From: an uncultured virus (IMG/VR IMGVR_UViG_3300030107_005396)
Lineage: Duplodnaviria; Heunggongvirae; Uroviricota; Caudoviricetes
Length of the DNA: 20,000 nucleotides
Reading direction: 5' to 3' (one strand)
Virus record (IMG/VR): IMGVR_UViG_3300030107_005396
Shown here: piece by piece, positions 879-20,000 of the stretch
Layout of the letters: every line of letters begins with the position of its first letter
Numbering within the stretch: the stretch's first letter is position 1
Translations under genes and position numbers: made by a program
The notes under the pieces: generated by a model
The model's input: the letters and a program-made list of their open reading frames with translations, nothing else
What the model was told of the DNA's origin: nothing
Databases searched by the model: none

Positions 879-897
879 TAGATATAAACAGTAGGAG
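879..897 (+). promoter_or_regulatory. Putative late-promoter-like element (TAGATATAAA) plus RBS (AGGAG) for the scaffold gene
   Basis: AT-rich TAnATA element in the 54-nt intergenic gap, with AGGAG 7 nt before ATG 905. It resembles the T4 late promoter TATAAATA. Confidence 0.4.
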
Positions 898-904
898 TTT
901 TTCC

Positions 905-1489: not shown

Positions 1490-1491
1490 TT

Positions 1492-3141: not shown

Positions 3142-3169
3142 TAAACTGTAAAGTTTAGCAGACTATAAA

Positions 3170-3200
3170 AAGAAGCCCAGCTGTTTTGGCTGGGCTTCTT
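3170..3200 (+). terminator. Stem-loop after the major capsid gene (probable intrinsic terminator or RNA-stabilising hairpin)
   Basis: AAGAAGCCCAGC-tgttttg-GCTGGGCTTCTT is a perfect 12-bp inverted repeat. The U-tract on the + strand is weak and an A-tract precedes it. Confidence 0.8.
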
Positions 3201-3214
3201 CCATATATAAGTGT

Positions 3215-4096: not shown

Positions 4097-4965
4097 TGAC
4101 TCTACTTTCAGGTCCTCCGTATGGATATCATTATCCACCCGAAATCGATGGTGCTACTGCTGTCGAATATCAAGGGTTTAGAGTACCTAATATTTTTGAT
4201 ATCAAAAGACAGATTTTTGAAAGAGAAAACGCAAATTTTAGAACGTTACAGTTTTTTAGGGATACTTCCAAAGAGCTTCTTAGTTTATTAAGCACCGCTC
4301 AGATTCTCGGAGAGGATTTAAAAATAGCTCAAGTTCCTATATTTTATGCGAATTATGAACGGGCAATAGCCAAATTATTTAAAAGTAGAAACCTAACCCT
4401 TCCTGTAATGTCGTTGGCTATTGCTGATACTGAAGAAGATGCGGATAGACGGCGTCCTAATTATGATATTGAGTTTTGGACCATCAAAGATGAAAAAACA
4501 AAGCGTTATACTCGGGTAGCCTCATTAGCTCCTAAGGCGGTGAATGTTTCGTATCAATTATATTTATGGGCACGTTATACGGAGGATATGAATCAATTGG
4601 TAGAATATGTAATGGCTCAATTTAGACCGCACCTGAGAATAGAAACGAATTTTAATACCAATGGACATGGATTCATTACCGCTGTATCTGATAATTCCAC
4701 AGTAACGGCTCCTGACAGGGAAGATAGAGTTTTGAGGAAAACCGTTACTATTAATGTAGAAAGCTATATGCCGACGAGACAGTATATGATTCAATCAAAT
4801 GGAGCAATTACTGAAATGAATTATGAAACTACCGTTGACCCTGGGCTACCTTTTGATACAAGTGGAGGTCAAGGGGGTCCTCCGGCTGCATCTGCCACAG
4901 AAAACCTGGTGATTAAGCCTGGCTCAGGAACTTGGTATAATCCCAAAGACCCCGATAACGCATAA
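4096..4965 (+). CDS. Tail sheath stabiliser/completion protein (T4 gp15-like)
   Basis: VPIFYA, TLPVMSL and PKAVNVSYQLYLWARYTEDMNQLVEYVMAQFRP resemble gp15 motifs. TAATG stop/start overlap with the neck gene. Confidence 0.75.
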   Translation: MTLLSGPPYGYHYPPEIDGATAVEYQGFRVPNIFDIKRQIFERENANFRTLQFFRDTSKELLSLLSTAQILGEDLKIAQVPIFYANYERAIAKLFKSRNLTLPVMSLAIADTEEDADRRRPNYDIEFWTIKDEKTKRYTRVASLAPKAVNVSYQLYLWARYTEDMNQLVEYVMAQFRPHLRIETNFNTNGHGFITAVSDNSTVTAPDREDRVLRKTVTINVESYMPTRQYMIQSNGAITEMNYETTVDPGLPFDTSGGQGGPPAASATENLVIKPGSGTWYNPKDPDNA

Positions 4966-5029
4966 TTAAAAAGGTAAATAATTACACTTTCACGACGGTG
5001 ATGTGCTAAATAATCATAGAGGAAGTGTA

Positions 5030-5206
5030 ATGAAAAATAAAACTATCATCAACGTTGCTGGGCAAGGATTAGAGATTATTCTCAAATCCGGCGGAGCATA
5101 CAAACATATTCATCTTAATGCGGGGAGCTCGATTAGCGTCCCCGAAAAATCAATCACAGATACTTGTCTGGAGCTTCAAAGGCGACAACTTCTTCAAATT
5201 CTATAA
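5030..5206 (+). CDS. Small hypothetical protein (58 aa) upstream of tail sheath
   Basis: ATG 5030 is preceded by an AGAGGA RBS and fills the gap between gp15-like and sheath genes. This start is preferred to the track's 5003. Confidence 0.7.
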   Translation: MKNKTIINVAGQGLEIILKSGGAYKHIHLNAGSSISVPEKSITDTCLELQRRQLLQIL

Positions 5207-5214
5207 GGTAAAAA

Positions 5215-7698: not shown

Positions 7699-7702
7699 AC
7701 AC

Positions 7703-7718
7703 TATATAATATAGAGGT
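7703..7718 (+). promoter_or_regulatory. Putative late-promoter-like element (TATATAA) plus RBS (GAGGT) for the tail tube gene
   Basis: The same TATATAA lies just upstream of the neck gene at 3204-3210. GAGGT is 9 nt before ATG 7728. Confidence 0.45.
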
Positions 7719-7727
7719 AAAAATAAT

Positions 7728-8399
7728 ATGGCAGATGGCAAATTTTACGTAGAGAGAGCAGCAGAACTAATTGCTGACTCCCCTCGTTTATCACATGCTT
7801 TGGACTCTTTCCGTGCTTATGCGTGGCAGATTCAAATTCCTAAGATTGCTGGTGCATTAGGAAATGTGCCAAGTTTAGCTAATCAAGAAAGACTTACACT
7901 TGCAGCAAAACAAGTCACTCAACCAGGGTTTACTGTTGAAGATATAGAAGTTCATCGTGTTAATGAGAAGTTCTATTACCCAGGTAAACCAACACCTGAT
8001 GAAATTACAGTTACGTTTGATAACTTAATTAAGGGGGATGTTGCTGACGCTTTGTTTGCATGGATGAGAACTGTATACGACCCTGTATACGGAATTCATT
8101 ACGCAGGTCTAGGAAATGGTACGACTGCTGTTGCCCAAAGCCCGGAAGGTCTCCCTGGTCTGACAGAATCTCCACTTTTCAAGAAGACGGTTACTATCTG
8201 GCAACTTGATGCTCACCGTAACCCTATCACTCACGTAAACCTTTATGGTTGTTATCCGAAAGGATGGAAGCTTGGGGAATTTAATTATGCAACGAACGAT
8301 TTCCACACTATTGAAATGACCCTGCGATATGACTTTGCAGTTCAGTTTACTGAAACTTCTGATATTGATTCAGTGTTGTCACCAATAGCAATCCCGTAA
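7728..8399 (+). CDS. Tail tube protein (T4 gp19-like)
   Basis: Follows the sheath gene. Motifs IEVHRVNEKFYYPGK, ITVTFD, AWM, LYGCYP and IEMTLRYD fit gp19-like tubes. Confidence 0.9.
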   Translation: MADGKFYVERAAELIADSPRLSHALDSFRAYAWQIQIPKIAGALGNVPSLANQERLTLAAKQVTQPGFTVEDIEVHRVNEKFYYPGKPTPDEITVTFDNLIKGDVADALFAWMRTVYDPVYGIHYAGLGNGTTAVAQSPEGLPGLTESPLFKKTVTIWQLDAHRNPITHVNLYGCYPKGWKLGEFNYATNDFHTIEMTLRYDFAVQFTETSDIDSVLSPIAIP

Positions 8400-8420
8400 G
8401 TATAATTTAAAGATTTTTTA

Positions 8421-8453
8421 TAGGCTTCTCTGGTAAATAACTAGAGGAGCCTA
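8421..8453 (+). terminator. Stem-loop after the tail tube gene
   Basis: TAGGCTTCTCTGG-taaataa-CTAGAGGAGCCTA is a 13-bp stem with two G-U pairs, followed by CTTT. Confidence 0.65.
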
Positions 8454-8465
8454 CTTTAATATATC

Positions 8466-10880
8466 ATGAATTTTTTTACCGAAGCATACGTTAAATCTGG
8501 AGGAACTTTGTTTGAAGGAAAGCCTGCAGTGGCTAAGCCTGCAGACCAGTATGTAGATATACTTAAACCTTATGCTCCTGGTGACCTACCTCCCGGAGTT
8601 CTTAAACCAGAAGCAGCGACTAATGCAACAGATGCTGCAGCTAATGCTAGGAAAAATCGAGATAACGCATACTCTTATAATGTAAAAATTAAAAACCCCC
8701 AAACTGAACAAGAGGAACAACGACCTATGGTTCGTTACGCGGGAACTAATCCACAGTACTCTCAAGGAGAATCCTTTACCGCCGCTGAGTGGGCTGCGAT
8801 TACCCAGCTGTACGGACAACAAAAAGACCAGTTAGCCGCTGAAACTCCAGATGGTGGGGATGAGAATAAAAAGAAACAACAACAGCAAGTAGAACCTTTA
8901 TTAGATGAGCCAGCCATAGGACAGGAACAGTATTTAGCTCAAGCAGCCGAAGCAGCTTCTGAAGCCCAATTAAAGTTATTGGAAGAAGCTGGAGTTGCTA
9001 TTACTCCCGATGTAAAAAAATGGTCGAAATCCTTTTGTCGTCAAGTTAGAGGTTTGGGAGAGAGGACTTTAATTTGGAAAGCCGCTCAAGAGGCTTTAGA
9101 ACAGAATCCAACTCTGCAAGAAGTAGAAGATTCTGCTCGTGATGCGACCGAGGCTGTCACCACTATATTTAAGTTAGCTCACAAGACACAACAACCAGGG
9201 TTTAACATGCAGGACTTCCCTGAAAACGATAGAGATTTTTTACAGAAGTGTGTCCGGCTACGAGGGACCGGTCAATCCAGAGGGGTTTATATAAAAGGAG
9301 GAAGTGAATGTGGTGGAGATTTAGCTGCTATAGGAGGAGACCAGTTAACCAGTGGAGGAGAAATATACGGACTTAAATTAGGAACTCAAAACTCCCCCTT
9401 GTACGTCGCCGTCCAAGGTCTCAGCGGGATACAAGCGGATAACGACAAACCTTTAGTCCCGTTAGGAAGATTAGGGTCGGCAGCCGCCAACCAATTTAAC
9501 GCTATAAATGGGGAGATGAATGAATGGTATCCTGCTTTAGCTCATGCCTTGTTTATAGATAAAAATACTCGCGACTTTAAAAAGCTGTATAAGGCTATGG
9601 TTGAACAGATGGGCACTAAACACAATTTAAAATTGTTTTTAGAGGTGGCTAAAGCTAAATCTGCAGGAGATTTAGACCAATTAGAAATTGCTAGTATGGC
9701 GGAGGAAGGTTCTATAGAACTTATAGATGATATTACCGAGGAGTTCGGGGAAACTCCGGATGAGAAAAAAGCGTTGCAATGGCTTATAACCCGTAATCTG
9801 ATGAATTGGAAAAACGTTGTCGAGAATCTTCCTTCGTGTATGAAATATGAAAAAGTAGGAGATAAAGGCGCAGGAATCCTGGCTGGCGGAAGAATAGTTA
9901 ACGCCGATATACAAGGAGATTGTGGAGGGTACGATGTTCAAAAGCTTTACTCAGACCTCGCTCAAAACCGTAGATTAGATGTTAAAGGAGAGCGGGACGA
10001 AGAGATAGATGCTGATTTACGCGCTAGTGTTAAAGATGACAGGCATGGTAGGTCGATTGATTTAGGGAAAAGGAGTCTATGGAAGACGCGTGATTTAAAT
10101 AATGCTGATGTTACAGAAGCTAGAAACCGTCAAATGGATTATATTGATGCGGTAGATAAAGGAGAAGTACTTCCACCGGAGTGGCGAGAGAAAGCTGATG
10201 CTTACCGTGAAAAAGAAACAAAGGCTATTGATGGGTGGTTAGCTGCCGTAAGCAATTTAGAACGAGGAGCGTTGAAAGATATCGCCAACAGTAAAACTCG
10301 TTTAATGCCTTATGATAAATTTTTAACATCTAAAAAATTGTACGATAAGTTAGAGGCGTACAACAGCGCGACGGATGACAAAGAACGCAAACAACTTTAT
10401 GCTGAGTTAGTTCCGGAGCTTACTAACGCCTACCGAGCCAAGCACAAGGGTGATGAGGGGATGCGTTACAACATGGCGGTAGAAGCAGCTATCAGTGGGA
10501 TGTCCACTGAACGTCAAGCATTTATTTTAACTGGTAGTAAGGGTACTTATATGAGTATGGAAAGTGATGTAGCCGGTAAAGCTATAGCCGGTATTTTAGG
10601 GATTGGCGGAGAACCCCCTATGAAGATGAAGTTCACTCAAAACCAAACTCAGTTTTTAGATGAAAATGGAAAAATAATATCCTCTGTAAGCTTACGTCGA
10701 AAAGGAACGACGCCTTCACAATTTTTTATCGTGGATAAGGAGTTTGCTAAGAATAATATGAAGCGGGTAGAAAGCAACGAAGAGCCTGTAGGTAATTCTT
10801 CTCTAACCGCCGAAGACATCGTCGGGCAACTTCAAGAACTTTTCCAACGGATAAATGAAATAGGTCTCATCAAGAACTAG
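8466..10880 (+). CDS. Large hypothetical protein (804 aa), possibly virion-internal, with a possible PD-(D/E)xK-like nuclease core
   Basis: Long uninterrupted ORF with no family recognised. It has a low-complexity Q/E/A-rich N-terminal part and a weak E...AD...SVK motif arrangement. Confidence 0.75.
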   Translation: MNFFTEAYVKSGGTLFEGKPAVAKPADQYVDILKPYAPGDLPPGVLKPEAATNATDAAANARKNRDNAYSYNVKIKNPQTEQEEQRPMVRYAGTNPQYSQGESFTAAEWAAITQLYGQQKDQLAAETPDGGDENKKKQQQQVEPLLDEPAIGQEQYLAQAAEAASEAQLKLLEEAGVAITPDVKKWSKSFCRQVRGLGERTLIWKAAQEALEQNPTLQEVEDSARDATEAVTTIFKLAHKTQQPGFNMQDFPENDRDFLQKCVRLRGTGQSRGVYIKGGSECGGDLAAIGGDQLTSGGEIYGLKLGTQNSPLYVAVQGLSGIQADNDKPLVPLGRLGSAAANQFNAINGEMNEWYPALAHALFIDKNTRDFKKLYKAMVEQMGTKHNLKLFLEVAKAKSAGDLDQLEIASMAEEGSIELIDDITEEFGETPDEKKALQWLITRNLMNWKNVVENLPSCMKYEKVGDKGAGILAGGRIVNADIQGDCGGYDVQKLYSDLAQNRRLDVKGERDEEIDADLRASVKDDRHGRSIDLGKRSLWKTRDLNNADVTEARNRQMDYIDAVDKGEVLPPEWREKADAYREKETKAIDGWLAAVSNLERGALKDIANSKTRLMPYDKFLTSKKLYDKLEAYNSATDDKERKQLYAELVPELTNAYRAKHKGDEGMRYNMAVEAAISGMSTERQAFILTGSKGTYMSMESDVAGKAIAGILGIGGEPPMKMKFTQNQTQFLDENGKIISSVSLRRKGTTPSQFFIVDKEFAKNNMKRVESNEEPVGNSSLTAEDIVGQLQELFQRINEIGLIKN

Positions 10881-11312
10881 TTCAGGCTTTACGTTGTAAG
10901 CCTCAGGAACGATTACTAGAGCCATTCGTCTTGTTTTCTGATAGATTACCATCCAACTCTTCTTCGCGGCCTTAGCATCACTCTGTGCTTGTTTGATGAA
11001 AGAGAAGAAATCACTTTTCCTTTTGAACAAGTCGTCAAGCTGAACGTCATACCCGTTCTTACATTCAATAATGAAAGGAAACCCTGAAGGGGTTATTAAA
11101 TCGCCCTGAATCTTCATGTGGTCAGGCAGCCCTTTGTGAGTAGTAGCGAACGCTCCTGACCCCGGGGTCCGACTAAATTCTTTGGTATTCAACCTTTCAT
11201 TCAACATTTTAGCAATCTTTCTTTCGAAGTTGCTTCCTTTGCGTTTACTATTAACGCGCTTCTTTTTGGAGAATTCTCCAAAACCTAAAAGAGATTCGTA
11301 ATTTTCTGACAT
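10803..11312 (-). CDS. Holliday junction resolvase (Hjc-like PD-(D/E)xK nuclease)
   Basis: NSKRKGSNFERKIAK, RTPGSGA, GDL and IIECKN motifs. Confidence 0.85.
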   Translation of the reverse strand: MSENYESLLGFGEFSKKKRVNSKRKGSNFERKIAKMLNERLNTKEFSRTPGSGAFATTHKGLPDHMKIQGDLITPSGFPFIIECKNGYDVQLDDLFKRKSDFFSFIKQAQSDAKAAKKSWMVIYQKTRRMALVIVPEAYNVKPELVLDETYFIYPLEKFLKLPDDVFGG

Positions 11313-11330
11313 GGTGTACTATAATAATGC

Positions 11331-11705
11331 ATGACTTCCGAAAAGGAAAAAATCACATTTGCCTTAGACGGCGAAAATTTTGGTAACTTTAAACTCCGCG
11401 AAGGAGAAAGACGTATGAAATTATATATCAAATTAAACAAAGAAGAAACCCAGCAATGGGAAACCCTCAAACAAGCGATGACCGGAGGAAAACTCTCCAA
11501 TGATGTTTTCGCAAGAATTCTTTTCTTTAAAGGCATCCATGCCATTACCCAAGAACTCAATGAACGCATAGAAAATCTAAGCAATGATGAGAGGGAAGAG
11601 ATACTTCGTTCTATGAACGAAGAGGATGCAGAAAAAGCGATGGAACTGGCTGAAGAAGAATTTGGAGTTGATATCGATGAGGACACTGAAGAAACTGTCA
11701 AGTGA
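11331..11705 (+). CDS. Hypothetical protein (possible ribbon-helix-helix-like DNA-binding core, acidic tail)
   Basis: 124-aa ORF. MKLYIKLNKEETQQWETLK..LSNDVFARILF suggests a strand-helix-helix pattern. TATAAT lies 5 nt upstream of the ATG. Confidence 0.6.
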   Translation: MTSEKEKITFALDGENFGNFKLREGERRMKLYIKLNKEETQQWETLKQAMTGGKLSNDVFARILFFKGIHAITQELNERIENLSNDEREEILRSMNEEDAEKAMELAEEEFGVDIDEDTEETVK

Positions 11706-12003
11706 GAAAGAATTAAACGAGGTTTTAAAACATCGTAAAAAGAAAAACTTCTCTGTGCTCTATTATTCCAAATGGGATAAATGGTCACAAAGAATATTAA
11801 ATCTAACAGATGAATGGACCTCGCAAGAAGGCAACGAAACAGTTTACTTGGTAAACAGTTGGGATTTGCCTGCTGCTTTTGCATCTTTCTCCATAACGAA
11901 TGCGCCTTCATTGGTTCATTTAATAAATGGTCGAGTAAGGGTGGATGTAGAGTATCCGAAAATTTATAATTATTTTTCAGTTACTCCTCCAGAAAAGACT
12001 TAA
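11677..12003 (+). CDS. Thioredoxin-fold protein lacking the CxxC motif
   Basis: Trx layout: SVLYYSKW-DKWS (for FxAxW-CGPC), VYLVN, FSITNAPSL (cis-Pro loop) and INGR. It contains no cysteines. Start taken at ATG 11677 after GGAG. Confidence 0.65.
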   Translation: MRTLKKLSSEKELNEVLKHRKKKNFSVLYYSKWDKWSQRILNLTDEWTSQEGNETVYLVNSWDLPAAFASFSITNAPSLVHLINGRVRVDVEYPKIYNYFSVTPPEKT

Positions 12004-12343
12004 TTTTCTTGTCCCTGTACTCAGCCATCTTTTCTTGATATTTCTTATTTTTGGTGTAAATAAGCTTCAGGTTGTTTACTATAACAGTAGTGAAGTAATT
12101 AAATGCCGAACCCTTTTCTCGGGTAAAGTTTTTAAGAACTTTTAAACATAGGACATAGCACTCTTGCTTTGCATCATCAAAATCCACTTTAAATTTAAAA
12201 GAAGTTAAAATGCTTGAAATTAATAAATCCAATTGAGATATGAGTTCTTCCTCATATTTTTCTCTATCTTCTAGGTAGTTGAAAATAGCTTCCTCAAATT
12301 TGGCATTATCAATGTAGTGTTTCTTTTTTCTTTTTCTCGCCAT
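11981..12343 (-). CDS. Late-transcription sigma factor (T4 gp55-like), short form
   Basis: HYIDNAKFEEAI and NFTREKGSAFNYFTTVIVN..KNKKY parallel gp55 HYVNNKEF and NPFAYFT motifs. Confidence 0.75.
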   Translation of the reverse strand: MARKRKKKHYIDNAKFEEAIFNYLEDREKYEEELISQLDLLISSILTSFKFKVDFDDAKQECYVLCLKVLKNFTREKGSAFNYFTTVIVNNLKLIYTKNKKYQEKMAEYRDKKIKSFLEE

Positions 12344-12355
12344 AACTCATAATAG

Positions 12356-13330
12356 ATGAACGACTTAGAAAAAATATTAGAATCTTTTGATAAAGATGAA
12401 AAAACAAAAGACTATTCTGCAACTGATGTTGGAGATGAAAAAATTGTTTTTATTACAACTTGTCAATATCGTGAACAAGGCTCTCTATATGATTTCAATG
12501 ACCATGAATATGGTATTGTAACCGCTTTATTAAAAGAGACGAGCTTACCCAAAGGTCATTATCAGTTTATCCCCGCCATCCGACAACCTAACGTTAAGGA
12601 AGATGATTTAACCACGACTGATTATAACGAGCACCGACCTTTTCTATATGAAGATTTAGAGCAGGTACAACCTGACCTCATTATCCCTTTAGGGAATGTA
12701 GCCATGAAAACGCTACTAAAAAAATCTGGACTCTTCAATAAGAGAGGAAGAGAGTTTGTTTATGAAGACTGTCCGGTTGTTCCGACATACAGCTCAGACC
12801 TCGTGTTCCTTGAACCTAAGTTACGTAAGTTGTTCGTTCAGGATATAAACAACGCATATGATAAGTTTGTATTAAATAAGAATAAATTTGATGGTACAAG
12901 TTATGTGTTATGCAAAACTGTTGAGGAGGTTAAAGAGCAGATGGCGCTAGCCCTTCAATCTGAGGTGCTTGGAGTCGATATAGAAACGACAGGTCTTGAT
13001 TTTAAGAAGGATGTTATGTCCACTATCGCGTTTTCGTATGGAGAGACCCAAGCCTTTACAATCCCTATTTATCATCGAGAGAGCCCGTTTGATGATATAG
13101 ATATGAAGGTTATTAAATCCGAGCTCGCTTCGTTAATGGAGAACGAAGATATTGAGAAAGTTTTTCATAATTGCCAATTTGATTTAAAATTTTTGATGAC
13201 ATTTGGAATTACCAACTTTAATAACATTGGAGATACAAAAATTATGCATTCACTGCTCGATGAAAATCTTCCACACGGTCTTATGGACTTGGTGAAAGAG
13301 TACTTCCCACAAGAATTGGAGAAATTTTAA
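12356..13330 (+). CDS. polA: DNA polymerase A, N-terminal subunit: degenerate UDG-like domain plus 3'-5' exonuclease motifs I and II
   Basis: UDG family 4-like fold (QPDLIIPLGNVAMKTLL, RG, PVVPTY), then ExoI GVDIETTG, ExoII HNCQFD and DTKIMHSLLDEN..HGL. It stops before ExoIII. Confidence 0.85.
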   Translation: MNDLEKILESFDKDEKTKDYSATDVGDEKIVFITTCQYREQGSLYDFNDHEYGIVTALLKETSLPKGHYQFIPAIRQPNVKEDDLTTTDYNEHRPFLYEDLEQVQPDLIIPLGNVAMKTLLKKSGLFNKRGREFVYEDCPVVPTYSSDLVFLEPKLRKLFVQDINNAYDKFVLNKNKFDGTSYVLCKTVEEVKEQMALALQSEVLGVDIETTGLDFKKDVMSTIAFSYGETQAFTIPIYHRESPFDDIDMKVIKSELASLMENEDIEKVFHNCQFDLKFLMTFGITNFNNIGDTKIMHSLLDENLPHGLMDLVKEYFPQELEKF

Positions 13331-14295
13331 TGATTACTGTAGAATATATTTGGTTAGACGGGGCGGAAGACATGCCCCAAATTCGTTCTAAGACTCGCGT
13401 CTTTAAAGAAAAACACGGTTTACATCAATTGCCTGAATGGTCTTTTGATGGAGGCAGTACATGGCAAGGAACTTTGCGCGATTCGGACAGGATTCTCAAG
13501 CCAGTAAAACTTTATAAAAACCCTTTTTCTGAAGGTAATTATCTTGCACTGTGCGAGGTAATGAATACAAATGGGAAACCCCACCAATCAAACCACCGTC
13601 ATCAATTAGTTAAAGATAACGACCCTGATGTATGGTTTGGGTTTGAACAGGAATACACTTTAACGGACCCAATGCAAAAACCACTAGTTCCTGCCGAGAT
13701 AGAGCAGGGAGAGTTTTATTGTGGGAACGGCACCGGTAGAGTAATGGGAAGGGGTGTTAGTCTCGACCATCTGAAGCACTGCGACAAAGCAGGTATCAGA
13801 CTATTTGGAGCAAATGCGGAAGTAATGCTTTCTCAATGGGAGTATCAAACTAACCCTGTTAACGCTGTAGATGCGGCTGATGATTTATGGGTTACTCGTT
13901 ACCTGTTGGAGAGGGGAGCGGAGTTTTATAACCTTCGAATCTCTTATCACCCAAAAATTTATACCGAGTTAAATGGTGCTGGCTGTCATGTAAATATTTC
14001 GACTCCAAGCACTCGCGAAGACTATAATAATATTAAACCTATTATGGCTAAGTTTAGAGAGTTTCACGATTTGCATATGGAAGTATACGGAATCGGCAAT
14101 GTTCTTCGGTTGACAGGAGAACACGAAACATCTTCTTATGACGAGTTTACTTGGAATGTTGGTGACCGAGGTGCTAGTGTCCGCATCCCTTCTTCTGTTA
14201 AAAAGGAAGGTAAAGGCTACTTTGAAGACCGCCGACCCGCCGCTACCTGTGACCCTTATCGTGTAACCGCTAGAATATTAGAGACGTTACGGTAA
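13330..14295 (+). CDS. glnII: Glutamine synthetase type II
   Basis: EYIWLDG, RSKT, PEWSFDG, WFGFEQEY, NAEVM..QWEYQ, NGAGCH.N.ST, RLTG.HET, RGASVRIP and GYFEDRRPA.CDPY. At 321 aa it is GSII-sized. Confidence 0.95.
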   Translation: MITVEYIWLDGAEDMPQIRSKTRVFKEKHGLHQLPEWSFDGGSTWQGTLRDSDRILKPVKLYKNPFSEGNYLALCEVMNTNGKPHQSNHRHQLVKDNDPDVWFGFEQEYTLTDPMQKPLVPAEIEQGEFYCGNGTGRVMGRGVSLDHLKHCDKAGIRLFGANAEVMLSQWEYQTNPVNAVDAADDLWVTRYLLERGAEFYNLRISYHPKIYTELNGAGCHVNISTPSTREDYNNIKPIMAKFREFHDLHMEVYGIGNVLRLTGEHETSSYDEFTWNVGDRGASVRIPSSVKKEGKGYFEDRRPAATCDPYRVTARILETLR

Positions 14296-14546
14296 TGGAT
14301 ACCGAACTCCAAAAAACCTATGATTCTCTCCAAGATATTATTGAGTGGGACCCTAGCGTAGTTGCGCGAGGATTTAAGATTCGTCCCTTGGCACGTTATT
14401 TCGGTGTTGAAGAAGAGAGAATGAAGACTATGATAAAGGACCTAAGGAATCATCTTGATGAATATGTCGATGATAATGATTTTTGTAATTACATCCAATG
14501 GTGCCAACCTAGAAAACCATATAATCACTTGGGATACGAACAATAA
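14295..14546 (+). CDS. Small hypothetical protein, possible helix-turn-helix
   Basis: TAATG-coupled to the glutamine synthetase gene. IRPLARYFGVEEERMKTMIKDL resembles an HTH. Confidence 0.6.
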   Translation: MDTELQKTYDSLQDIIEWDPSVVARGFKIRPLARYFGVEEERMKTMIKDLRNHLDEYVDDNDFCNYIQWCQPRKPYNHLGYEQ

Positions 14547-14547
14547 A

Positions 14548-16062
14548 ATGCTAACAGTAACGGACGGAGGAACACATGATTGGGAGAATATGCCGCTGGA
14601 TGAAATGGCGTTGGGCAATGCTATGGACGCTGATTTCACTTTACGCGCACACCAACAAATGGAAAAAGAGATGAAGATAAAAGGTGTACAGCATGTGTAC
14701 ACCAAACTTCTCAAAAAAATATTGGTCGTAGCTTCCGACATTGAACACAGGGGTATTTTGGTAGACACCAATTGTGTGTCCAAGTTTGATGAACTTCTTG
14801 ACCAAGAGATTGCAGATATGGAGAAGAAGTTATCAGAGCTTTCAGTTATAGATGGGGTAAATCCAAGGTCTAATGCAGACATGGGATTACTTCTCTTTTC
14901 TAAAGAAGGTTTCGGGTTGAGGGCAGTTGAGTTTTCTAAAAAAACAAAAGCTCCTTCTATTTCTGAGGCTCATTTACAAAAAGTAGCGGTCACTGCCACA
15001 GGAGCAGCTAAAGAGTATATTGAGTTGTTATTGAAGTACAAGTTCCGAGTAAAGCAACACAAGACTTACGTAAAGGGCGTAGAAGCCGCTGTAGAGTACA
15101 ATGAAGATGGTAGAGTCTACTCTAGCTATAACTTCGGAAACGTTGTTACAGGGCGTCTGAGCTGCTCTACGTATGCAGCAGGTCCTAAAAAGAAAAAAGG
15201 TATTTCGTTTCACACCTTACCACGTCCTGATGAGAATGATGAGGTAAATTTGAGAAGCATGATGACAGCTGATGAAGAGAAGGTGTTCTTAGCTGCGGAC
15301 TTCTCTCAAGCTGAGTTAAGGGTATTAGCTCAATGCTGTAGGGATAAAAATTTAATTGAAGCGTTCAACTCTGGACAAGATTTGCACAGCTTCACTGCCT
15401 CCTTAGTGTTCGGTAAAGAACCTGAGAAGGTAACCAAACAAGAAAGGCAGATTGCAAAGAGTGTTAGCTTTTTGATTGTGTATGGAGGTGGTCCCAATAA
15501 ATTAGCAGAACAAATAGGTAAGGACGTAGGGTATTGTAAAAATATTTTTCGGGCTTACCAAGATGCGTTCCCAAAAGTTTTTAATTGGATTAACTTCGTA
15601 CATAAGTTTGTGAGAGAAAACGGATATGCTGTAAGTATTTTTGGTCGTCGTAGACATTTACCTAATGTGAAGAGCCCGAACAAGAAGTATCAGTATCGTG
15701 CGTTACGTCAGGGCATGAACTTTGTTATTCAAAGCTCTGCTTCCGACCTCATGCTACATTCTATCTTACGTCTGCAAAAGTATATCGAAGCTACGGGCTT
15801 GGATGCGCAGATTCTTGCCACTGTCCACGACTCTGTAGAAGTTCAGTGTTCTAAAAAAGACATGAAAAAAGTAATCGAAATGATGAAGTATGTTTTAGAG
15901 AGCACTGAGGATTTTAAAACATTGTATGGATTGGATTTTGTTGTTCCGTTTTTAGTAGACGTTGAAGCCGGTCGTTCTTTTGGGGACTTGATTGAGGCTG
16001 AGTTTGAATCGGGAGGACATCTGCTTAATGAAGCAGAAATATTTGATTATGTTAAAAAATAG
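14548..16062 (+). CDS. polA: DNA polymerase A, C-terminal subunit: ExoIII plus polymerase domain
   Basis: GNAMDADFTL (ExoIII), TGRLS, motif A AADFSQAELRVLA, motif B RQIAKSVSFLIVYG, NFVIQSSASD and motif C VHDS. Start placed at ATG 14548, 1 nt after the upstream stop. Confidence 0.93.
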   Translation: MLTVTDGGTHDWENMPLDEMALGNAMDADFTLRAHQQMEKEMKIKGVQHVYTKLLKKILVVASDIEHRGILVDTNCVSKFDELLDQEIADMEKKLSELSVIDGVNPRSNADMGLLLFSKEGFGLRAVEFSKKTKAPSISEAHLQKVAVTATGAAKEYIELLLKYKFRVKQHKTYVKGVEAAVEYNEDGRVYSSYNFGNVVTGRLSCSTYAAGPKKKKGISFHTLPRPDENDEVNLRSMMTADEEKVFLAADFSQAELRVLAQCCRDKNLIEAFNSGQDLHSFTASLVFGKEPEKVTKQERQIAKSVSFLIVYGGGPNKLAEQIGKDVGYCKNIFRAYQDAFPKVFNWINFVHKFVRENGYAVSIFGRRRHLPNVKSPNKKYQYRALRQGMNFVIQSSASDLMLHSILRLQKYIEATGLDAQILATVHDSVEVQCSKKDMKKVIEMMKYVLESTEDFKTLYGLDFVVPFLVDVEAGRSFGDLIEAEFESGGHLLNEAEIFDYVKK

Positions 16063-17065
16063 TAAAGTCGTCATCCTCACGGATTTGCATCTAAGGTCTG
16101 ATTACCTTCCGGGGTTTTTAGAAAGACAAGTAGAAACGCTTTTAGACTTGGTTAACAAGAAGCCATGTTCTCACGTCGTTATTAATGGGGATATCTTTGA
16201 ACGTAGAAACCCTAACTCTGAGGAGATACTTGCGTTTGATTATATGTTGGACCAAATGAAAAACAAGGAGGTTATCATCAATAGAGGTAACCACGACACA
16301 ATGAGAAAAGATGGTACGTCTGATACCATACTCTCTGTGTTCTCATCTAAAGCCCACGTAGTTAAGGACACTGAAACGGTTCGGATTGGCTCGGTAGATT
16401 TTGATATCATCCCTCACTATGAAGATGAAGACCGAATCATCGAGGATTTAAAAGCCACGAAGAACCCGGTGTTCGGTCACTTTGGTTATGACGGGTGTAT
16501 TGATGGAGCTTACGCTATGGAAGCACGAGTAAAGCATTGGCACTTTAAGAAAAAGCCTTGGGCTTTCTTAGGTCACATTCACAGACCTAACATATACAAG
16601 AACGTAGTCATCCTAGGTACTCAGTACTCTAATACGTTCGGGGAACCTAATGCTCAGAAGTATATTCACGAACTTGTTATTCGTGATGGCGAGGTAGAAA
16701 TGATTAGAAAGACAATCGACAAAGGTATCAAACATTTAGTGTGTACCTTAGATGAGTTACCTAAACTAGCGAAGAAACATAGAATAGAAAATTTCTTCAC
16801 GTTGCTAAGAGTCAAACTTGACCGTTTAGATTCGTACACGGAAGAACGTCTGAAAGAAGAGCTGTTTGCTCAGTACCCAATTCAAAGCTTGGACTTGGTG
16901 TTTGAAGATGTCTTCCCTAAGTTTGAGTCCGACTACACCCCCGAGCAAAAAATATTTACTTTGGACGATAAGATTATAGATGATTACATCAATGCTAGTG
17001 AAACTGTCTTTACTAAACCTGAACTACTAGACGCTTTAGAGGAGATTAAACATGCAGCTAAATAA
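16049..17065 (+). CDS. Mre11/SbcD-like recombination nuclease subunit (T4 gp47-like)
   Basis: Metallophosphoesterase motifs DLH, GDIF, GNHD, GHF and GHIH. Start at ATG 16049 overlaps the polymerase end. Confidence 0.92.
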   Translation: MLKNSKVVILTDLHLRSDYLPGFLERQVETLLDLVNKKPCSHVVINGDIFERRNPNSEEILAFDYMLDQMKNKEVIINRGNHDTMRKDGTSDTILSVFSSKAHVVKDTETVRIGSVDFDIIPHYEDEDRIIEDLKATKNPVFGHFGYDGCIDGAYAMEARVKHWHFKKKPWAFLGHIHRPNIYKNVVILGTQYSNTFGEPNAQKYIHELVIRDGEVEMIRKTIDKGIKHLVCTLDELPKLAKKHRIENFFTLLRVKLDRLDSYTEERLKEELFAQYPIQSLDLVFEDVFPKFESDYTPEQKIFTLDDKIIDDYINASETVFTKPELLDALEEIKHAAK

Positions 17066-18662
17066 AATCGAGATACATAATTTTCTTTCTATTAAACAAG
17101 CAACTGTGGATTTCGATTCCTATGGAAACCTTGTTAGGATTATAGGAAAGAACTTTGATACGAAGCCCACAGGTTCTAACGGAGCAGGCAAAAGTTCTAT
17201 TATAGAAGCGGTTATGTTTGCTTTGTTTGGAAAAACAATTAGAACTACAAATGACAAAAGTTTAAAAAATTATCATACAAAAGGTAAGTGTCGTGTCGTT
17301 CTTACTGTTAACGGGGATACTGTTATTGAACGTATTAAGAAACCTTCACGTCTTGCTGTTACGGTAGGGGATGAAAACTGTACTAAAGAATCGATGAAGG
17401 CTACCCAAAAATACTTGGAGCAGATTCTAAATATCAACCACCAAGTGTTCTTAGCTTCTATTGTATTTGGTCAACAGAACTCTTCTAACTTCTTAACAGC
17501 TACCCCTGAAGAGAAGAGAGCTATTATCCAAAACTTCTTATCTGTGGGGGACTTGTTTAAGAAACGGTCTACCATTAAATCATTGAAGTCTAGTTATCTT
17601 GGCGATAAAAAGATAAATCTTACTTTACATAATGATGGTGCAAGTAAAATTGAAAAATTAGATAAGAAAATAAAGAAGTTACGTCAACTTAAAAAACAAT
17701 CGAAAAGCCTTTTTACTCCTGAGCAATTTAAATTTATTTTTTCTCATTCGTTGAGTGAAATACAGGAGAAAGAAAGAGCTTATCACCAGAAAGATTTAGA
17801 GTACGAGACCGCCATAACCCACCGAGAAGTTTTACGCGAACGTATACTCAGAACTCACTCAGTCGCTAAAGGCTTGAAAGAAACAAATTGTGAGCATTGT
17901 GGGGAGTTGTCCACAGCTAACACCACCAAGCTTAAAGAACTAGAGGATGATATGCAAGAGTGGTCCCAAGAAGAACGGGCTAAAGTAAAAGAAATACAAA
18001 AGCTCGGCAAAGATGTAGATGCTATGCGTATACCTGTCACTGTAGCTGAGTTTGAAAGTGTAGAAAAATTTAAAGAAGTTGACACAGAGATAAAGATATT
18101 GAGTAAACAGCTGCGTGGAGAGAAAGCTCTCGTCAAGAAGTACGGAGACCTCTCTACCGAAGCACAAAAACATTATGACCTGATGAGGTATTGGGAGTAC
18201 GCTTTCTCAGAAGTTGGATTAATTAAATATGTTATTAGAAACATTTTGGATTATCTTAACGAACGATGTAACTCGTATCTCAGCAGTATAACTAAAGGAA
18301 ATTTTTCTATAAAATTTGATGACTCTCTTGATGAAACCATCTATAATAATGGGAACGAATCACATTTCGATTCTCTTTCAGGAGGAGAAAAGAAAAGGGT
18401 ATCACTAGCCGTGATGCTTGGTCTCAACGACCTCCTACTTCTGACTGGAAAAGAGAGGTCGAACATCATCTTCTTTGATGAGGTAGCTGAATCGTTAGAT
18501 GAGGACGGCGTAAAAGGTTTGATTGAACTGATTCACCAACTCACAAAACACAAAAAATTGTTCTTAATTACTCATAATGAATATTTAAATTCACTACTTG
18601 AAGAATATTCTGAAACTTTAACGGTGGTAAAACGTAATAATCTTACCAAAATTACTAAATAA
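17052..18662 (+). CDS. Rad50/SbcC-like ATPase (T4 gp46-like)
   Basis: Walker A GSNGAGKSS, Q-loop FGQ, zinc hook CEHC, signature LSGGEKKR, Walker B IIFFDE and H-loop ITH. Confidence 0.95.
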   Translation: MQLNKIEIHNFLSIKQATVDFDSYGNLVRIIGKNFDTKPTGSNGAGKSSIIEAVMFALFGKTIRTTNDKSLKNYHTKGKCRVVLTVNGDTVIERIKKPSRLAVTVGDENCTKESMKATQKYLEQILNINHQVFLASIVFGQQNSSNFLTATPEEKRAIIQNFLSVGDLFKKRSTIKSLKSSYLGDKKINLTLHNDGASKIEKLDKKIKKLRQLKKQSKSLFTPEQFKFIFSHSLSEIQEKERAYHQKDLEYETAITHREVLRERILRTHSVAKGLKETNCEHCGELSTANTTKLKELEDDMQEWSQEERAKVKEIQKLGKDVDAMRIPVTVAEFESVEKFKEVDTEIKILSKQLRGEKALVKKYGDLSTEAQKHYDLMRYWEYAFSEVGLIKYVIRNILDYLNERCNSYLSSITKGNFSIKFDDSLDETIYNNGNESHFDSLSGGEKKRVSLAVMLGLNDLLLLTGKERSNIIFFDEVAESLDEDGVKGLIELIHQLTKHKKLFLITHNEYLNSLLEEYSETLTVVKRNNLTKITK

Positions 18663-18674
18663 AACGGATAGAAA

Positions 18675-18962
18675 ATGGAATATACCCCTAATGGAAAAAG
18701 ACTCATCGTCTCTCGTAAGAAGCACGATATAAAGACCAAATCAGGTATTGTACTACCTGATGCTGTAACTGAAAAAAAGCTTAGCGAAGGATATATAGAA
18801 CGTATAGCAATCGGATGTGAAGGAGAGCATTGGGAAGAAGGAATGCATGTCATCTTCGCCCAATTTGCAGGACAAGAAATTAGTGTAGACGGGAATGTGT
18901 ACTTAGTTCTTCCTGAAGATGATGTTCTCGTATACGGTTGGGATAAAGACGGAGCAGAGTAA
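18675..18962 (+). CDS. groES: Co-chaperonin GroES (cpn10)
   Basis: PNGKRLIV, mobile loop KTKSGIVLP, G..VIFAQFAGQEI.VDG..YLVL.EDDVL; 95 aa. Confidence 0.9.
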   Translation: MEYTPNGKRLIVSRKKHDIKTKSGIVLPDAVTEKKLSEGYIERIAIGCEGEHWEEGMHVIFAQFAGQEISVDGNVYLVLPEDDVLVYGWDKDGAE

Positions 18963-20000
18963 TGGGTTACGAGATTCCAGAAAACTCCCTTGCGGAGACT
19001 ATCTTCATGGATAAATATGCTTATCCAGGCGAGAAGTCGTGGAAGGAATGCGCAAAGCGAGTGGCTAAAGCCGCCTCTGACCCTGAATTCCCTGAGAACA
19101 GGGAGAAGTTTGAACATAAGTTTTATGAGGCTATTAACAGCGGGGACTTCTGTCCGGGCGGACGTATATTATTTGGCTCAGGAAGAAGCCACCAGAACAT
19201 GTTAAATTGTTATGTGTTGGACCCTGAGGACTCAGTAGAAAGTATTGGAAAAGTTATTTCTGATATGTACAAAATTTCATGCGGTGGAGGGGGTATCGGC
19301 TTCAACTTCTCCAAAATTAGACCTAAAGGGGATAACATTCAAAATATTAAGAATTCTGCGCCCGGTTCTATTTCGGTTATGAGAATGATTAACGAGATTG
19401 GTAATCATGTCAGAGCAGGAAAGAACCGTCGTACAGCGTTAATGTCTATTTTAGATATTACGCACCCAGATTTTTTAGAGTTTTTACACGTAAAACTTGA
19501 CCGAAATGAACTAACTAATTTCAATGTCTCCGTAGCAATCACTAAACGATTTGTGGAGGCGGTTGAAAGAGATGAAGAATGGTACTTTACTTTCGGGGGT
19601 AGGCAAAATAAATACTTTGTCTACGAAGTTGAGCGCATATCGGAGTCAGGCAATGATGTCATCGATGTCGTGGCTAAAGACGAAGAAGACGCACTTGGTA
19701 GAGCGCAGCTTCATAACCTTAAACATTACGCGGATACATTTACAGGAGTTAAGAAGAAGGAAATCCGCGCTCGTGAACTTTGGGAACGCATTGTGGACAA
19801 TGCTATTGAATCAGGGGAACCGGGCATCTTCAACATTGATTTTGCTAACGAATACACTAACGTCTCTTATTTCGAACACATGCCTGCTACTAATCCTTGC
19901 GGGGAAGAAGTCCTCCCTGCTTACGGTAACTGTTGCCTTGGTCACGTCAATCTTGCTAATATGGTTGATATGGATGGCAATGTCGATTGGCGCAGGCTTG
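18962..20000 (+). CDS. nrdJ: Ribonucleotide reductase large subunit, probably class II (B12-dependent), 3'-truncated
   Basis: Not in the ORF track; translated manually from ATG 18962 (TAATG overlap with groES): MGYEIPENSLAETIFMDKYAYPGE, FCPGGRILFGSG, NCYV, GGGGIGFNFSKIRP, NFNVSV, SGEPG, TNPCGE, NCCLGHVNL. There is no N-terminal ATP cone. Confidence 0.88.
   Translation, partial: MGYEIPENSLAETIFMDKYAYPGEKSWKECAKRVAKAASDPEFPENREKFEHKFYEAINSGDFCPGGRILFGSGRSHQNMLNCYVLDPEDSVESIGKVISDMYKISCGGGGIGFNFSKIRPKGDNIQNIKNSAPGSISVMRMINEIGNHVRAGKNRRTALMSILDITHPDFLEFLHVKLDRNELTNFNVSVAITKRFVEAVERDEEWYFTFGGRQNKYFVYEVERISESGNDVIDVVAKDEEDALGRAQLHNLKHYADTFTGVKKKEIRARELWERIVDNAIESGEPGIFNIDFANEYTNVSYFEHMPATNPCGEEVLPAYGNCCLGHVNLANMVDMDGNVDWRRL

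What the first reader, a model, noticed from the sequence alone, without database searches (positions are those of the whole stretch)
12356..16062. Family A DNA polymerase split inside its proofreading domain, with glutamine synthetase and a small ORF inserted between the halves
Seen: gene 1 (12356-13330) carries ExoI and ExoII and ends ...KEYFPQELEKF. Gene 2 (14548-16062) starts MLTVTDGGTHDWENMPLDEMALGNAMDAD, which is the ExoIII helix, followed by an intact polymerase domain. The 1.2 kb between them is fully occupied by glnII and an 83-aa ORF, joined by TAATG, TAATG and TAAAATG junctions. There is no room for an intron and I see no intein ends. Known: the 3'-5' exonuclease site needs acidic residues from ExoI, II and III, and split family B gp43 genes with intervening DNA occur in some T4-like phages. 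Inference: this is a heterodimeric PolA whose proofreading site is assembled from two polypeptides, with translational coupling across the cargo genes setting stoichiometry.
Basis: partly seen in the sequence, partly recalled or inferred. Interest (0 to 1): 0.85.

Follow-up and report, generated by a model that had tools for sequence, protein, structure and literature searches.

The report
Naturally split phage DNA polymerase A
An uncultured marine phage encodes its family A DNA polymerase as two separate genes cut inside the proofreading domain, and the gap between them is a slot that holds a glutamine synthetase gene here and other genes or nothing in related phages.

Summary
Four tightly packed + strand genes lie at 12356-16062. 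They are a UDG-like/ExoI-ExoII half, a full-length type II glutamine synthetase (GS), an orphan 83-aa ORF, and an ExoIII + polymerase half. The junctions read TAATG, TAATG and TAAAATG.

It is not an assembly artefact, intron, intein or pseudogene. N-half–GS–C-half recurs in 24 distinct IMG/VR contigs. The same break point is shared by 67 diverged cluster representatives, which sit on one side of a single tree branch (SH-aLRT 100).

In 22 non-GS relatives the slot is empty (15) or holds ThyX, small ORFs, or an opposite-strand gene. Many relatives cut the polymerase a second time, in the thumb.

A co-fold supports binding of the halves (0.91; best control 0.30), though this may reflect likeness to solved one-chain PolAs.

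The break differs from the published PolA split in T7-like cyanophages, which lies after a complete exonuclease domain. All 16 split forms checked replace the ExoIII tyrosine by Gly-Asn; all 30 contiguous relatives keep it.

Two claims are not supported: that GS caused the split (unresolved), and that translational coupling sets stoichiometry.

Verdict: a new variant of a known kind, of moderate to high interest.

The parts
12356..13330 (+). PolA N half (324 aa): degenerate family-4-UDG-like domain followed by the first two thirds of the 3'-5' exonuclease fold. ExoI is DIETTGL at 12977-12997 and ExoII is HNCQFDLKFL at 13166-13195. It ends ...PQELEKF.
   Evidence: PF01612 positions 4-134 of 173; UDG 23.4 bits, cutoff 24.3; D208, E210, F275 invariant and D276 >=90% in 60 sequences.
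13330..14295 (+). Cargo gene 1: type II glutamine synthetase (321 aa), full length.
   Evidence: E 2.5e-85 to yeast GS 3fky, residues 2-320 on 24-352. NF041605 GlnII 307.7 bits, residues 3-319 on 4-327 of 333, below the 500-bit equivalog cutoff. Pfam; invariant columns in 34 homologues include E106, E108, E164, E171, H220, R280, R285, E299, R301; motif blocks.
14295..14546 (+). Cargo gene 2: orphan 83-aa ORF, present in only some relatives.
   Evidence: No Pfam, PHROG or NCBIfam match. Only 2 other clusters among 5.8 billion proteins. Homologues in L103 and L107-L109. dN/dS 0.2 against L103. Replaced by 4-13 letters in contigs of runs X1, X5 and X6 (table 5c). Weak, low-confidence winged-helix-like structural hits only.
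14548..16062 (+). PolA C half (504 aa): ExoIII helix (GNAMDAD, 14614-14634; D27 is the ExoIII Asp, with Gly in place of Tyr), then thumb, palm and fingers. Motif A is DFSQAELR at 15298-15321, motif B is RQIAKSVSFLIVYG at 15445-15486, and motif C is VHDS at 15823-15834.
   Evidence: PF00476, 276 bits; Klenow alignment.
13328..13332 (+). Junction 1: TAATG. The stop of the N half overlaps the start of GS. A GGAG lies 8 nt upstream, inside the conserved ...ELEKF codons.
14293..14297 (+). Junction 2: TAATG (GS stop / orf83 start).
   Evidence: Bridged by an error-free 1302-nt contig of run X1.
14544..14550 (+). Junction 3: TAAAATG (orf83 stop / C-half start).
   Evidence: Bridged by the same X1 contig.

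Best explanation
This is a naturally split family A DNA polymerase of the UDG-PolA type, in an uncultured marine phage with T4-like head and tail genes.

The enzyme is made as two proteins:
- The N half (UDG-like domain plus ExoI and ExoII).
- The C half (ExoIII helix plus the whole polymerase domain).

The ExoIII helix and the following helices of the C half pack onto the incomplete exonuclease fold of the N half. This rebuilds one exonuclease site from carboxylates of both chains and gives a heterodimer equivalent to a one-chain PolA (inferred).

The cut lies in a surface loop and is an old, inherited trait of a whole clade (shown). The resulting gene boundary behaves as a cargo slot, in which genes are gained, exchanged and lost (shown). 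In this lineage the slot holds a type II glutamine synthetase and, in this strain, an extra orphan ORF.

The GS is most likely an auxiliary metabolic gene co-expressed with the replication module. It would supply glutamine, the amide-nitrogen donor of purine and pyrimidine synthesis. It is probably not a part of the polymerase (inferred). The same slot holds thymidylate synthase ThyX in a sister lineage.
For: Real and inherited:
- N-half–GS–C-half is seen in 24 distinct IMG/VR contigs with both flanks.
- All 23 GS loci have GS in this slot as far as the DNA reaches. The N half lies directly upstream in 22. The C half lies downstream in 20. L101 starts inside GS, and L102, L104 and L115 end inside it.
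- Of the 150 best representatives of 1.84 billion proteins, 138 cover the region. Of these, 67 end at the same point as the window's N half, 66 are contiguous and 5 are other.
- The 67 form one side of a branch with SH-aLRT 100, one change on the tree.

Clean cut: one-chain profiles are covered without extra residues. No Hint or intein domain was found. No Rfam intron was found at E<=1.

Selection: dN/dS is 0.04-0.07 for the N half, GS and C half where dS is computable. The catalytic carboxylates are invariant or nearly so.

Binding: the co-fold scores 0.91 against a best control of 0.30. That mark was reached by 116 of 157 solved complexes and 2 of 215 mismatched pairs. The three runs share >=97% of their contacts and the partner's pLDDT is >=83. 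The interface joins C-half residues 1-2 and 12-67 to N-half residues 181-324, and the new termini touch.

Slot behaviour: 22 non-GS split contigs were examined. Fifteen have no cargo (stop and start overlap or lie 1-3 nt apart). Two hold ThyX (Pfam Thy1, 1e-49). Two hold a 91-aa ORF, one a 62-aa ORF, and two a 330-aa ORF on the opposite strand. After GS there is nothing, a 62-aa ORF, orf83, or orf83 plus more.

GS: full-length match to solved GSII enzymes. None of 80 cellular GlnII loci is flanked by PolA halves.
Against: - No biochemical or RNA evidence exists for this enzyme.
- The co-fold may pass because contiguous PolA structures are solved, so it shows likeness rather than binding of this copy.
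- The ExoIII tyrosine is missing in every split form (Gly-Asn instead). Proofreading could therefore be weakened, altered or lost, with the N half kept only for stability.
- The GS role is inferred from its family and its neighbours alone. GS stays in the slot across lineages whose N halves are only 50% identical, so a tie to the polymerase is not excluded.
- In the Logan contigs listed, junction 13330 is not bridged by 31 or more letters on both sides. Its support comes from the IMG/VR contigs.
Confidence: 0.85

Rival explanations
1. The two halves work apart. The C half would be an exonuclease-less polymerase, and the N half an independent UDG-like or nuclease accessory or a structural remnant. 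No shared proofreading site would form.
For: The ExoIII tyrosine is lost in 16 of 16 split forms but kept in 30 of 30 contiguous relatives. The UDG-like domain of the window lacks the His-Pro motif that the family consensus keeps. In L020/L022 the halves are separated by an opposite-strand gene.
Against: The N half stops at PF01612 position 134 of 173. It aligns to only residues 25-140 of a 211-aa stand-alone nuclease, so its fold is incomplete alone. D208, E210, D276 and C-half D27 stay conserved down to about 28% identity. The co-fold places the ExoIII helix against ExoI. According to passages read in PMC10201439, PolAs need the exonuclease domain for stability.
Confidence: 0.08
2. GS, alone or with orf83, is a functional partner of the polymerase. 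It would be comparable to thioredoxin for T7 DNA polymerase and would be kept between the halves for co-assembly.
For: GS occupies the slot in both branches of clade B, in lineages whose N halves are only 50-53% identical to the window's. Every phage GS locus found lies in the slot.
Against: Sister lineages hold ThyX or nothing in the same slot, and clade A is mostly empty. GS diverges faster than the polymerase halves: 64-71% identity against 74-84% (N half) and 80-93% (C half) in the loci. GS keeps the conserved blocks of an enzyme.
Confidence: 0.05
3. The gene is restored at the RNA or protein level by an intron, a split intein or recoding, so that one polypeptide is made.
For: Introns occur in other phage PolA genes, and split inteins occur in 'fractured' metagenomic polymerase genes (PMC10580990, passages read; PMC2677866, abstract only).
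Against: The 1218 bases between the halves are coding apart from 1 base. No Rfam match was found apart from a chance-level snoRNA hit inside the C half. There are no intein-sized extra residues and no Hint domain. The cargo differs in gene, length and even strand among relatives.
Confidence: 0.01
4. The arrangement is an assembly chimera or a decaying pseudogene.
For: None beyond the oddity of the arrangement. Junction 13330 is not bridged by 31 or more letters on both sides in the listed Logan contigs.
Against: The same order is seen in 24 distinct contigs from many samples. dN/dS is low. The catalytic motifs are intact.
Confidence: 0.01

Closest known systems
Split exo|pol PolA of T7-like cyanophages (S-SBP1, S-TIP37, P-SSP7; Czernecki et al. 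2023, PMC10201439, passages read; PMC12695635, passages read)
   Same: A family A phage polymerase encoded by two adjacent genes, predicted to reassemble into the one-chain fold. There is no intein or intron.
   Different: In those phages the first gene holds the whole exonuclease domain. P-SSP7's 177-aa subunit covers PF01612 positions 20-171 of 173 and carries ExoI, ExoII and YCVQD, and no cargo is annotated between its two genes. Here the cut falls before ExoIII, so the active site itself is divided. The lineage is a UDG-PolA, not T7-like. The junction carries cargo, and many relatives are cut a second time.
Split family B polymerase gp43 of some T4-like phages; split PolB of RM378 and PhiKZ (PMC3061061, passages read; PMC13648687, abstract read)
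   Same: A replicative phage polymerase in two genes, separated by 2 bp to 3 kb of other DNA. For PhiKZ a stable 1:1 complex has been shown.
   Different: [quoted passage not shown] From my own recollection, not from a call, the intervening DNA in T4-like phages is linked to mobile endonuclease cassettes. No endonuclease gene was seen in the slots examined here.
MEP401-type OM43 phages (PMC10580990, passages read)
   Same: A marine phage PolA in two ORFs with a small unknown ORF between them.
   Different: There the cut lies inside the polymerase domain, and the first ORF has the exonuclease plus the N-terminal part of the polymerase. The authors leave an intron open as an explanation.
Contiguous UDG-PolAs (N4-like cluster 17; SPO1, SP-10; PMC10201439, passages read)
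   Same: The same domain order, family-4-UDG-like, then exonuclease, then polymerase. These are the nearest one-chain relatives by sequence. Motif C reads HDS in most of them too (43 of 57).
   Different: They are one polypeptide and keep the ExoIII tyrosine (30 of 30).
Bacterial and eukaryotic type II glutamine synthetase (GlnII)
   Same: Full-length alignment to solved GSII enzymes at E 1e-72 to 1e-85, with conserved catalytic blocks.
   Different: It is a short form of 321 aa. The best cellular match is 48% identical. It scores below the NCBIfam equivalog cutoff. It is encoded by a phage, inside a polymerase operon.

Membership tests
Family A DNA polymerase (PF00476) | Polymerase domain match above the curated cutoff | tested here: met
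   C half scores 276.2 bits against a cutoff of 34.3, residues 77-479 on profile 4-380 of 381. Klenow fragment matches at E 2.8e-48.
Family A DNA polymerase (PF00476) | Catalytic motifs A, B and C (motif names and roles recalled) | tested here: met
   DFSQAELR, RQIAKSVSFLIVYG and VHDS are invariant in 9 relatives. Motif C reads HDS rather than HDE, as it does in 43 of 57 contiguous relatives.
DEDDy 3'-5' exonuclease domain of PolA (PF01612) | ExoI (D, E) and ExoII (D) carboxylates | tested here: met
   D208 and E210 are invariant and D276 is >=90% conserved in 60 N halves. Pfam score 69.9 bits against a cutoff of 23.6.
DEDDy 3'-5' exonuclease domain of PolA (PF01612) | ExoIII aspartate on the same chain | tested here: not met
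   The N half ends at profile position 134 of 173. The ExoIII Asp is D27 of the C half.
DEDDy 3'-5' exonuclease domain of PolA (PF01612) | ExoIII tyrosine (Y-x3-D) | tested here: not met
   The motif reads G-N-x-x-D in 16 of 16 split forms and Y-x3-D in 30 of 30 contiguous relatives.
Family 4 uracil-DNA glycosylase | Domain match above cutoff, with catalytic motifs | tested here: not met
   PF03167 scores 23.4 bits against 24.3. TIGR00758 scores 26.3 against 125.3. The window has ...VVPTYSSD... where the family consensus has ...VVPxxHP.... The role of this His is recalled. Many relatives do carry a precomputed PF03167 hit.
Type II glutamine synthetase (GlnII) | Full-length similarity to characterised GSII | tested here: met
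   3fky matches at E 2.5e-85 over residues 2-320. In all, 16 GSII sequences match at E<=4.4e-72. Gln-synt_C scores 60 bits against a cutoff of 24.
Type II glutamine synthetase (GlnII) | NCBIfam equivalog cutoff | tested here: not met
   NF041605 scores 307.7 bits against a cutoff of 500.
Type II glutamine synthetase (GlnII) | Enzyme activity | not testable with these tools
   Only conservation of the blocks FGFEQEY, NAEVM..QWEYQ, NGAGCH, RGASVRIP and YFEDRRPAA can be shown. Their roles are recalled.
Split exo|pol PolA of T7-like cyanophages | Cut after a complete exonuclease domain; T7-like lineage | tested here: not met
   The P-SSP7 exonuclease subunit covers PF01612 positions 20-171 of 173 and includes YCVQD. 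The window's N half covers 4-134. The nearest relatives of the window are UDG-PolAs.
Split-intein 'fractured gene' | Intein halves at the new termini | tested here: not met
   No Hint or intein family was found in either half. Only 8 and 10 residues at the termini are unaligned to phrog_17.
Group I/II intron | Structured non-coding RNA between exons | tested here: not met
   No intron family was found at E<=1 in 11900-16500. There are 0-1 non-coding bases at the junctions.

The most novel reading that the evidence does not exclude
Fission of PolA at permissive loops has created insertion slots inside an essential, strongly expressed replication operon. The loops are the one before ExoIII and, in many relatives, the thumb. 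Marine phages use these slots to capture and exchange nucleotide-supply genes, namely GS, ThyX and a dNMP-kinase-like gene. In parallel, the trans-assembled exonuclease site swaps its tyrosine for Gly-Asn. This would give a new catalytic variant of the DEDD nuclease, whose proofreading depends on the supply of a separate subunit and could therefore be tuned.
Probability: 0.25. Interest if true: 0.75.

Novelty: new variant of a known kind. Interest (0 to 1): 0.6.

Why it matters
Split replicative polymerases are rare. In passages read from PMC10201439, Czernecki et al. 2023 call the exo|pol split of T7-like cyanophages the first split seen in PolAs.

This finding shows a second, independent and much more populated case:
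- There are 67 clusters at 50% identity among the best 150 hits. They appear abundant in marine metagenomes (many Tara, ENA and JGI members).
- The cut runs through the proofreading site itself, not between domains.
- Relatives are often cut again in the thumb.

It gives a natural system for three questions:
- How far can a PolA be fragmented and still work?
- Can proofreading be supplied in trans?
- How do gene boundaries inside essential operons become landing sites for auxiliary metabolic genes?

Practical consequences:
- Annotation pipelines label the N halves 'hypothetical' or 'uracil-DNA glycosylase family 4'.
- PolA marker-gene surveys of virioplankton may mis-handle these two- and three-piece genes.
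- A phage-borne GSII is uncommon. In the phage record collection it matched only 4 huge-phage records at 43-46% identity, plus one weak 24% match in a fecal phage record.

Tried and rejected
- Near and distant DNA search of the phage records: no match.
- Protein searches of isolate phages: only contiguous PolAs at <=32% (N half) and <30% (C half) identity, so no cultured member of the split clade was found.
- Whole genome of the window: none is held.
- Rfam: only a chance-level snoRNA hit.
- Promoter and terminator scan: not above shuffles, 16 against 13.3±3.4 and 6 against 3.8±2.3.
- Far-T4 lead: the paper has no mention of a split or of GS (term search). My recollection that RM378 has a split PolA was wrong; it is a PolB.
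- Nasko 2018: the words 'split', 'two ORFs', 'uracil' and 'interrupted' do not occur (term search).
- Literature searches for GS between polymerase halves or for a split UDG-PolA found nothing (with passages). Supplements were not read.
- Sequencing runs: no RNA holder was listed, so nothing can be said on transcription.
- Logan contigs: no listed record bridges 13330 with 31 or more letters on both sides. Several 'skip' joints at 85% likeness were left uninterpreted, as they probably come from relatives.
- orf83: the Atlas gave only sub-threshold winged-helix-like structural hits on a low-confidence model (pLDDT 0.53), so no function is assigned.
- dN/dS: dS was saturated and not computable in 4 of 9 pairs.
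- Donor of GS: the best cellular GlnII is 48% identical and the top hits span many phyla, so no donor or host can be named.
- Order of fission and GS insertion: not resolved by parsimony.
- Motif C reading HDS was considered as a peculiarity of the split forms and rejected, because the contiguous relatives share it.

Full report
**What is in the window.** One search lists four abutting + strand ORFs.
- 12356-13330: 324 aa.
- 13330-14295: 321 aa.
- 14295-14546: 83 aa.
- A frame ending at 16062. Its conserved start is the ATG at 14548 (MLTV...), shared by 9 aligned relatives and 16 further split forms.

The junctions read TAATG, TAATG and TAAAATG.

Pfam gives the following.
- The first protein has PF01612 (3'-5' exonuclease) on residues 186-323, but only on profile positions 4-134 of 173. 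It also has a sub-threshold family-4 UDG match.
- The second has both glutamine synthetase domains.
- The third matches nothing.
- The fourth has PF00476 at 276 bits.

One-chain polymerase profiles are divided cleanly. On phrog_17 the halves cover 481-785 and 794-1240. On NCBIfam DNA polymerase I they cover 286-432 and 446-886.

The alignment to Klenow fragment places C-half D27 on the ExoIII aspartate and G23 on the ExoIII tyrosine (Klenow numbering recalled). The one correction is that the ExoIII helix lacks its tyrosine.

**The phage.** The window also encodes T4-like head and tail proteins: gp23, prohead protease, sheath, tube and gp15-like. It further encodes SbcCD-like nucleases, a PDDEXK nuclease, GroES and ribonucleotide reductase.

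No isolate phage is close. There is no DNA match, the C half is <30% identical and the N half <=32% identical, and all of those hits are contiguous PolAs. No whole genome is held for the window.

**Not an artefact, intron or intein.**
- The order N half–GS–C half occurs in 24 distinct IMG/VR contigs in which both flanks are visible.
- All 23 GS loci found in IMG/VR have GS in this position. The N half is directly upstream in 22. The C half is downstream in 20. The remaining loci end inside GS.
- Rfam finds no intron at E<=1.
- No intein family is found, and there are no surplus residues at the new termini.
- Where synonymous change is not saturated, dN/dS is 0.04-0.07 for both halves and GS, and 0.2 for orf83. 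Four of the 9 pairs were saturated.
- In public runs, an error-free 1302-nt contig of run X1 bridges the second and third junctions. X1 may be the source sample. The first junction is not bridged by 31 letters on both sides in the listed records, and no RNA run was listed.

**The cut is old and family-wide.** A full HMMER search with the N half found 2585 proteins at E<=0.001. The top of the list consists of 320-360-aa proteins that end where the window's N half ends. One-chain forms of 780-1300 aa appear only from E of about 1e-29.

Of the 150 listed proteins, 138 cover the region (12 fragments were dropped). Of these, 67 are split, 66 contiguous and 5 other. On their tree the 67 split forms are one side of a branch with SH-aLRT 100, a single change.

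The word-index search shows that these proteins come from Tara, ENA, JGI and Logan marine data, on contigs of up to 118 kb. They are named only 'hypothetical protein' or 'uracil-DNA glycosylase family 4'.

**The junction is a cargo slot.** IMG/VR gave 190 confirmed relatives of the N-half alignment, and the best 80 were examined. Twenty-two distinct non-GS contigs show the same cut.

| Content of the slot | Contigs |
|---|---|
| Nothing (stop and start overlap or lie 1-3 nt apart) | 15 |
| ThyX (Pfam Thy1, 1e-49) | 2 |
| 91-aa hydrophobic ORF | 2 |
| 62-aa ORF | 1 |
| 330-aa ORF on the opposite strand | 2 |

A near-identical sister of the opposite-strand pair (L021) has no cargo.

Within the GS group, the sequence after GS varies.

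| After GS | Contigs |
|---|---|
| Directly the C half | 6 |
| Short spacer | 1 |
| 62-aa ORF | 8 |
| About 230 nt, not examined | 2 |
| orf83 homologue | 1, plus the window |
| orf83 plus more | 3 |
| About 90 nt, then a three-piece polymerase | 3 |

In three runs from three studies, contigs replace 14276-14547 (orf83) by 4-13 letters (table 5c). orf83 is therefore a presence/absence polymorphism.

Nucleotide identity to L001, L009 and L002 is about 72% upstream of the slot and 82-86% downstream. This hints at recombination there, although gene-specific constraint contributes to the difference.

**Order of events.** On a tree of 47 split loci rooted with 8 contiguous relatives, the split forms are one clade (100) with two branches.
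- Clade A (19 rows) is mostly empty, with sporadic cargo.
- Clade B (28 rows, SH-aLRT 97) holds GS in 25 rows, with the ThyX pair and one empty locus nested inside it.

GS was therefore present at or near the base of clade B, and was later replaced or lost. Whether the original fission was caused by an insertion cannot be decided, because both histories cost two events.

**Further fragmentation.** In 18 loci the C half is itself two ORFs. An M piece of about 158-164 aa carries ExoIII plus part of the thumb. A piece of about 370 aa carries the rest (PF00476, 264-278 bits). The two usually overlap by 8 nt.

The cut maps to window C-half residues of about 130-157. By the Klenow alignment this is the thumb (the subdomain assignment is recalled). 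L018 holds a 184-aa P-loop, dNMP-kinase-like ORF at this second junction, with matches below the Pfam cutoffs. Three-piece forms occur in clade A and in one GS lineage of clade B.

**How the two proteins work.** The co-fold of the two chains, with alignments of 60 and 9 rows, scored 0.91 against a best control of 0.30.
- That mark was reached by 116 of 157 solved complexes and 2 of 215 mismatched pairs.
- The three runs agree in >=97% of contacts, and the partner's pLDDT is >=83.
- C-half residues 1-2 and 12-67 touch N-half residues 181-324, including the ExoI strand. The new termini touch each other.

Because one-chain PolA structures are solved, this pass may reflect likeness. It shows that the pieces fit the known fold, not that they bind.

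The N half cannot be a complete nuclease. It lacks the last 39 positions of PF01612. It aligns only to residues 25-140 of a 211-aa stand-alone nuclease.

The four carboxylates are conserved. The ExoIII tyrosine, however, is Gly followed by an invariant Asn in 16 of 16 split forms, while 30 of 30 contiguous relatives keep Y-x3-D. Proofreading is thus probably retained but chemically altered. That is an inference.

Motif C reads HDS, but so do most contiguous relatives.

**The cargo.** The GS aligns end to end with solved type II enzymes (yeast 3fky, E 2.5e-85) and keeps their conserved blocks. It scores below the NCBIfam GlnII equivalog cutoff.

Its nearest cellular homologues are only 48% identical and are scattered over many phyla. 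None of 80 such loci is flanked by polymerase halves. In the phage record collection it matched only four huge-phage records at 43-46% identity, plus one weak 24% match in a fecal phage record.

The slot holds ThyX elsewhere, and the neighbours include RNR. I therefore read GS as an auxiliary gene feeding nucleotide synthesis. That is an inference.

orf83 has only two other clusters in 5.8 billion proteins and no assignable fold.

**Comparison with what is known.** Czernecki et al. 2023 describe an exo|pol split in T7-like cyanophages as the first in PolAs. They treat UDG-PolAs as one-chain enzymes (PMC10201439, passages).

I checked P-SSP7. Its exonuclease subunit contains ExoI, ExoII and ExoIII. 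That cut therefore lies between domains, not inside the active site.

MEP401-type phages cut the polymerase domain itself, with a small ORF between the pieces (PMC10580990). Split PolBs occur in T4-like phages, RM378 and PhiKZ.

Searches for a split UDG-PolA, or for GS between polymerase halves, found nothing. Supplements were not read.

**Verdict.**
- The heterodimer reading is well supported by comparative evidence.
- The 'insertion' and 'translational coupling' parts are not supported.
- This is a new variant of a known kind: an abundant, uncultured clade whose PolA is cut through the proofreading site, often cut again, and used as a slot for metabolic genes.

Noticed in passing
L018, L020-L022, L025-L027, L029-L034, L036, L037, L057, L111, L112 (for example L030:6918-7412 and 7390-8502): In 18 related loci the polymerase is in three pieces. 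The C half is cut again in the thumb into an M piece of ~160 aa and a piece of ~370 aa, usually overlapping by 8 nt. L018 carries a 184-aa P-loop, dNMP-kinase-like ORF at this second junction.
   Followed up: partly
window 14614-14634; split loci: The ExoIII motif is G-N-x-x-D in all 16 split forms checked and Y-x-x-x-D in all 30 contiguous relatives checked. Loss of the catalytic tyrosine goes with the split.
   Followed up: partly
window 12356-12870 (for example 12776-12799): The UDG-like domain of this lineage lacks the N-terminal CxGC motif and the His-Pro motif that the wider split family's consensus keeps. It is probably not an active glycosylase.
   Followed up: partly
window 14276-14547: Contigs in three runs from three studies replace orf83 by 4-13 letters, so strains with and without orf83 coexist. 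One of these runs is also the best holder of the window's own sequence.
   Followed up: partly
window 10458-14297 versus 14547-18999: Nucleotide identity to L001, L009 and L002 jumps from about 72% upstream of the slot to 82-86% downstream. This is not so for L005 (72% and 74%). It may mark a recombination break at the slot.
   Followed up: no
L020:6929-7921 (- strand), also L022: A 330-aa, very basic ORF with no Pfam family sits between the polymerase pieces on the opposite strand. The near-identical relative L021 has nothing there.
   Followed up: partly
window 251-8399: The phage has T4-like structural genes (prohead protease, gp23 capsid protein, gp15-like, sheath, tube) but a family A polymerase, not the family B gp43 of T4.
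   Followed up: partly
window 8466-10880: An 804-aa ORF between the tail-tube gene and the replication block has no significant family in Pfam or PHROGs.
   Followed up: no
window 11981-12343 (- strand): A 120-aa ORF, divergently oriented just upstream of the N half, is conserved at 78-86% in the closest relatives and 64-67% in the deeper GS lineages. It has no family match.
   Followed up: no
L063 versus L064; L045: In more distant, otherwise contiguous PolA lineages, L063 is interrupted by about 1.2 kb where L064 is continuous. L045 has about 2 kb between an N-terminal 731-aa ORF and the last polymerase part. These are other, unrelated interruptions.
   Followed up: no
window 16028-17065 and 17052-18662: The SbcD-like and SbcC-like genes overlap the end of the C half and each other. 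Tight packing is therefore a property of the whole block, not of the split.
   Followed up: no
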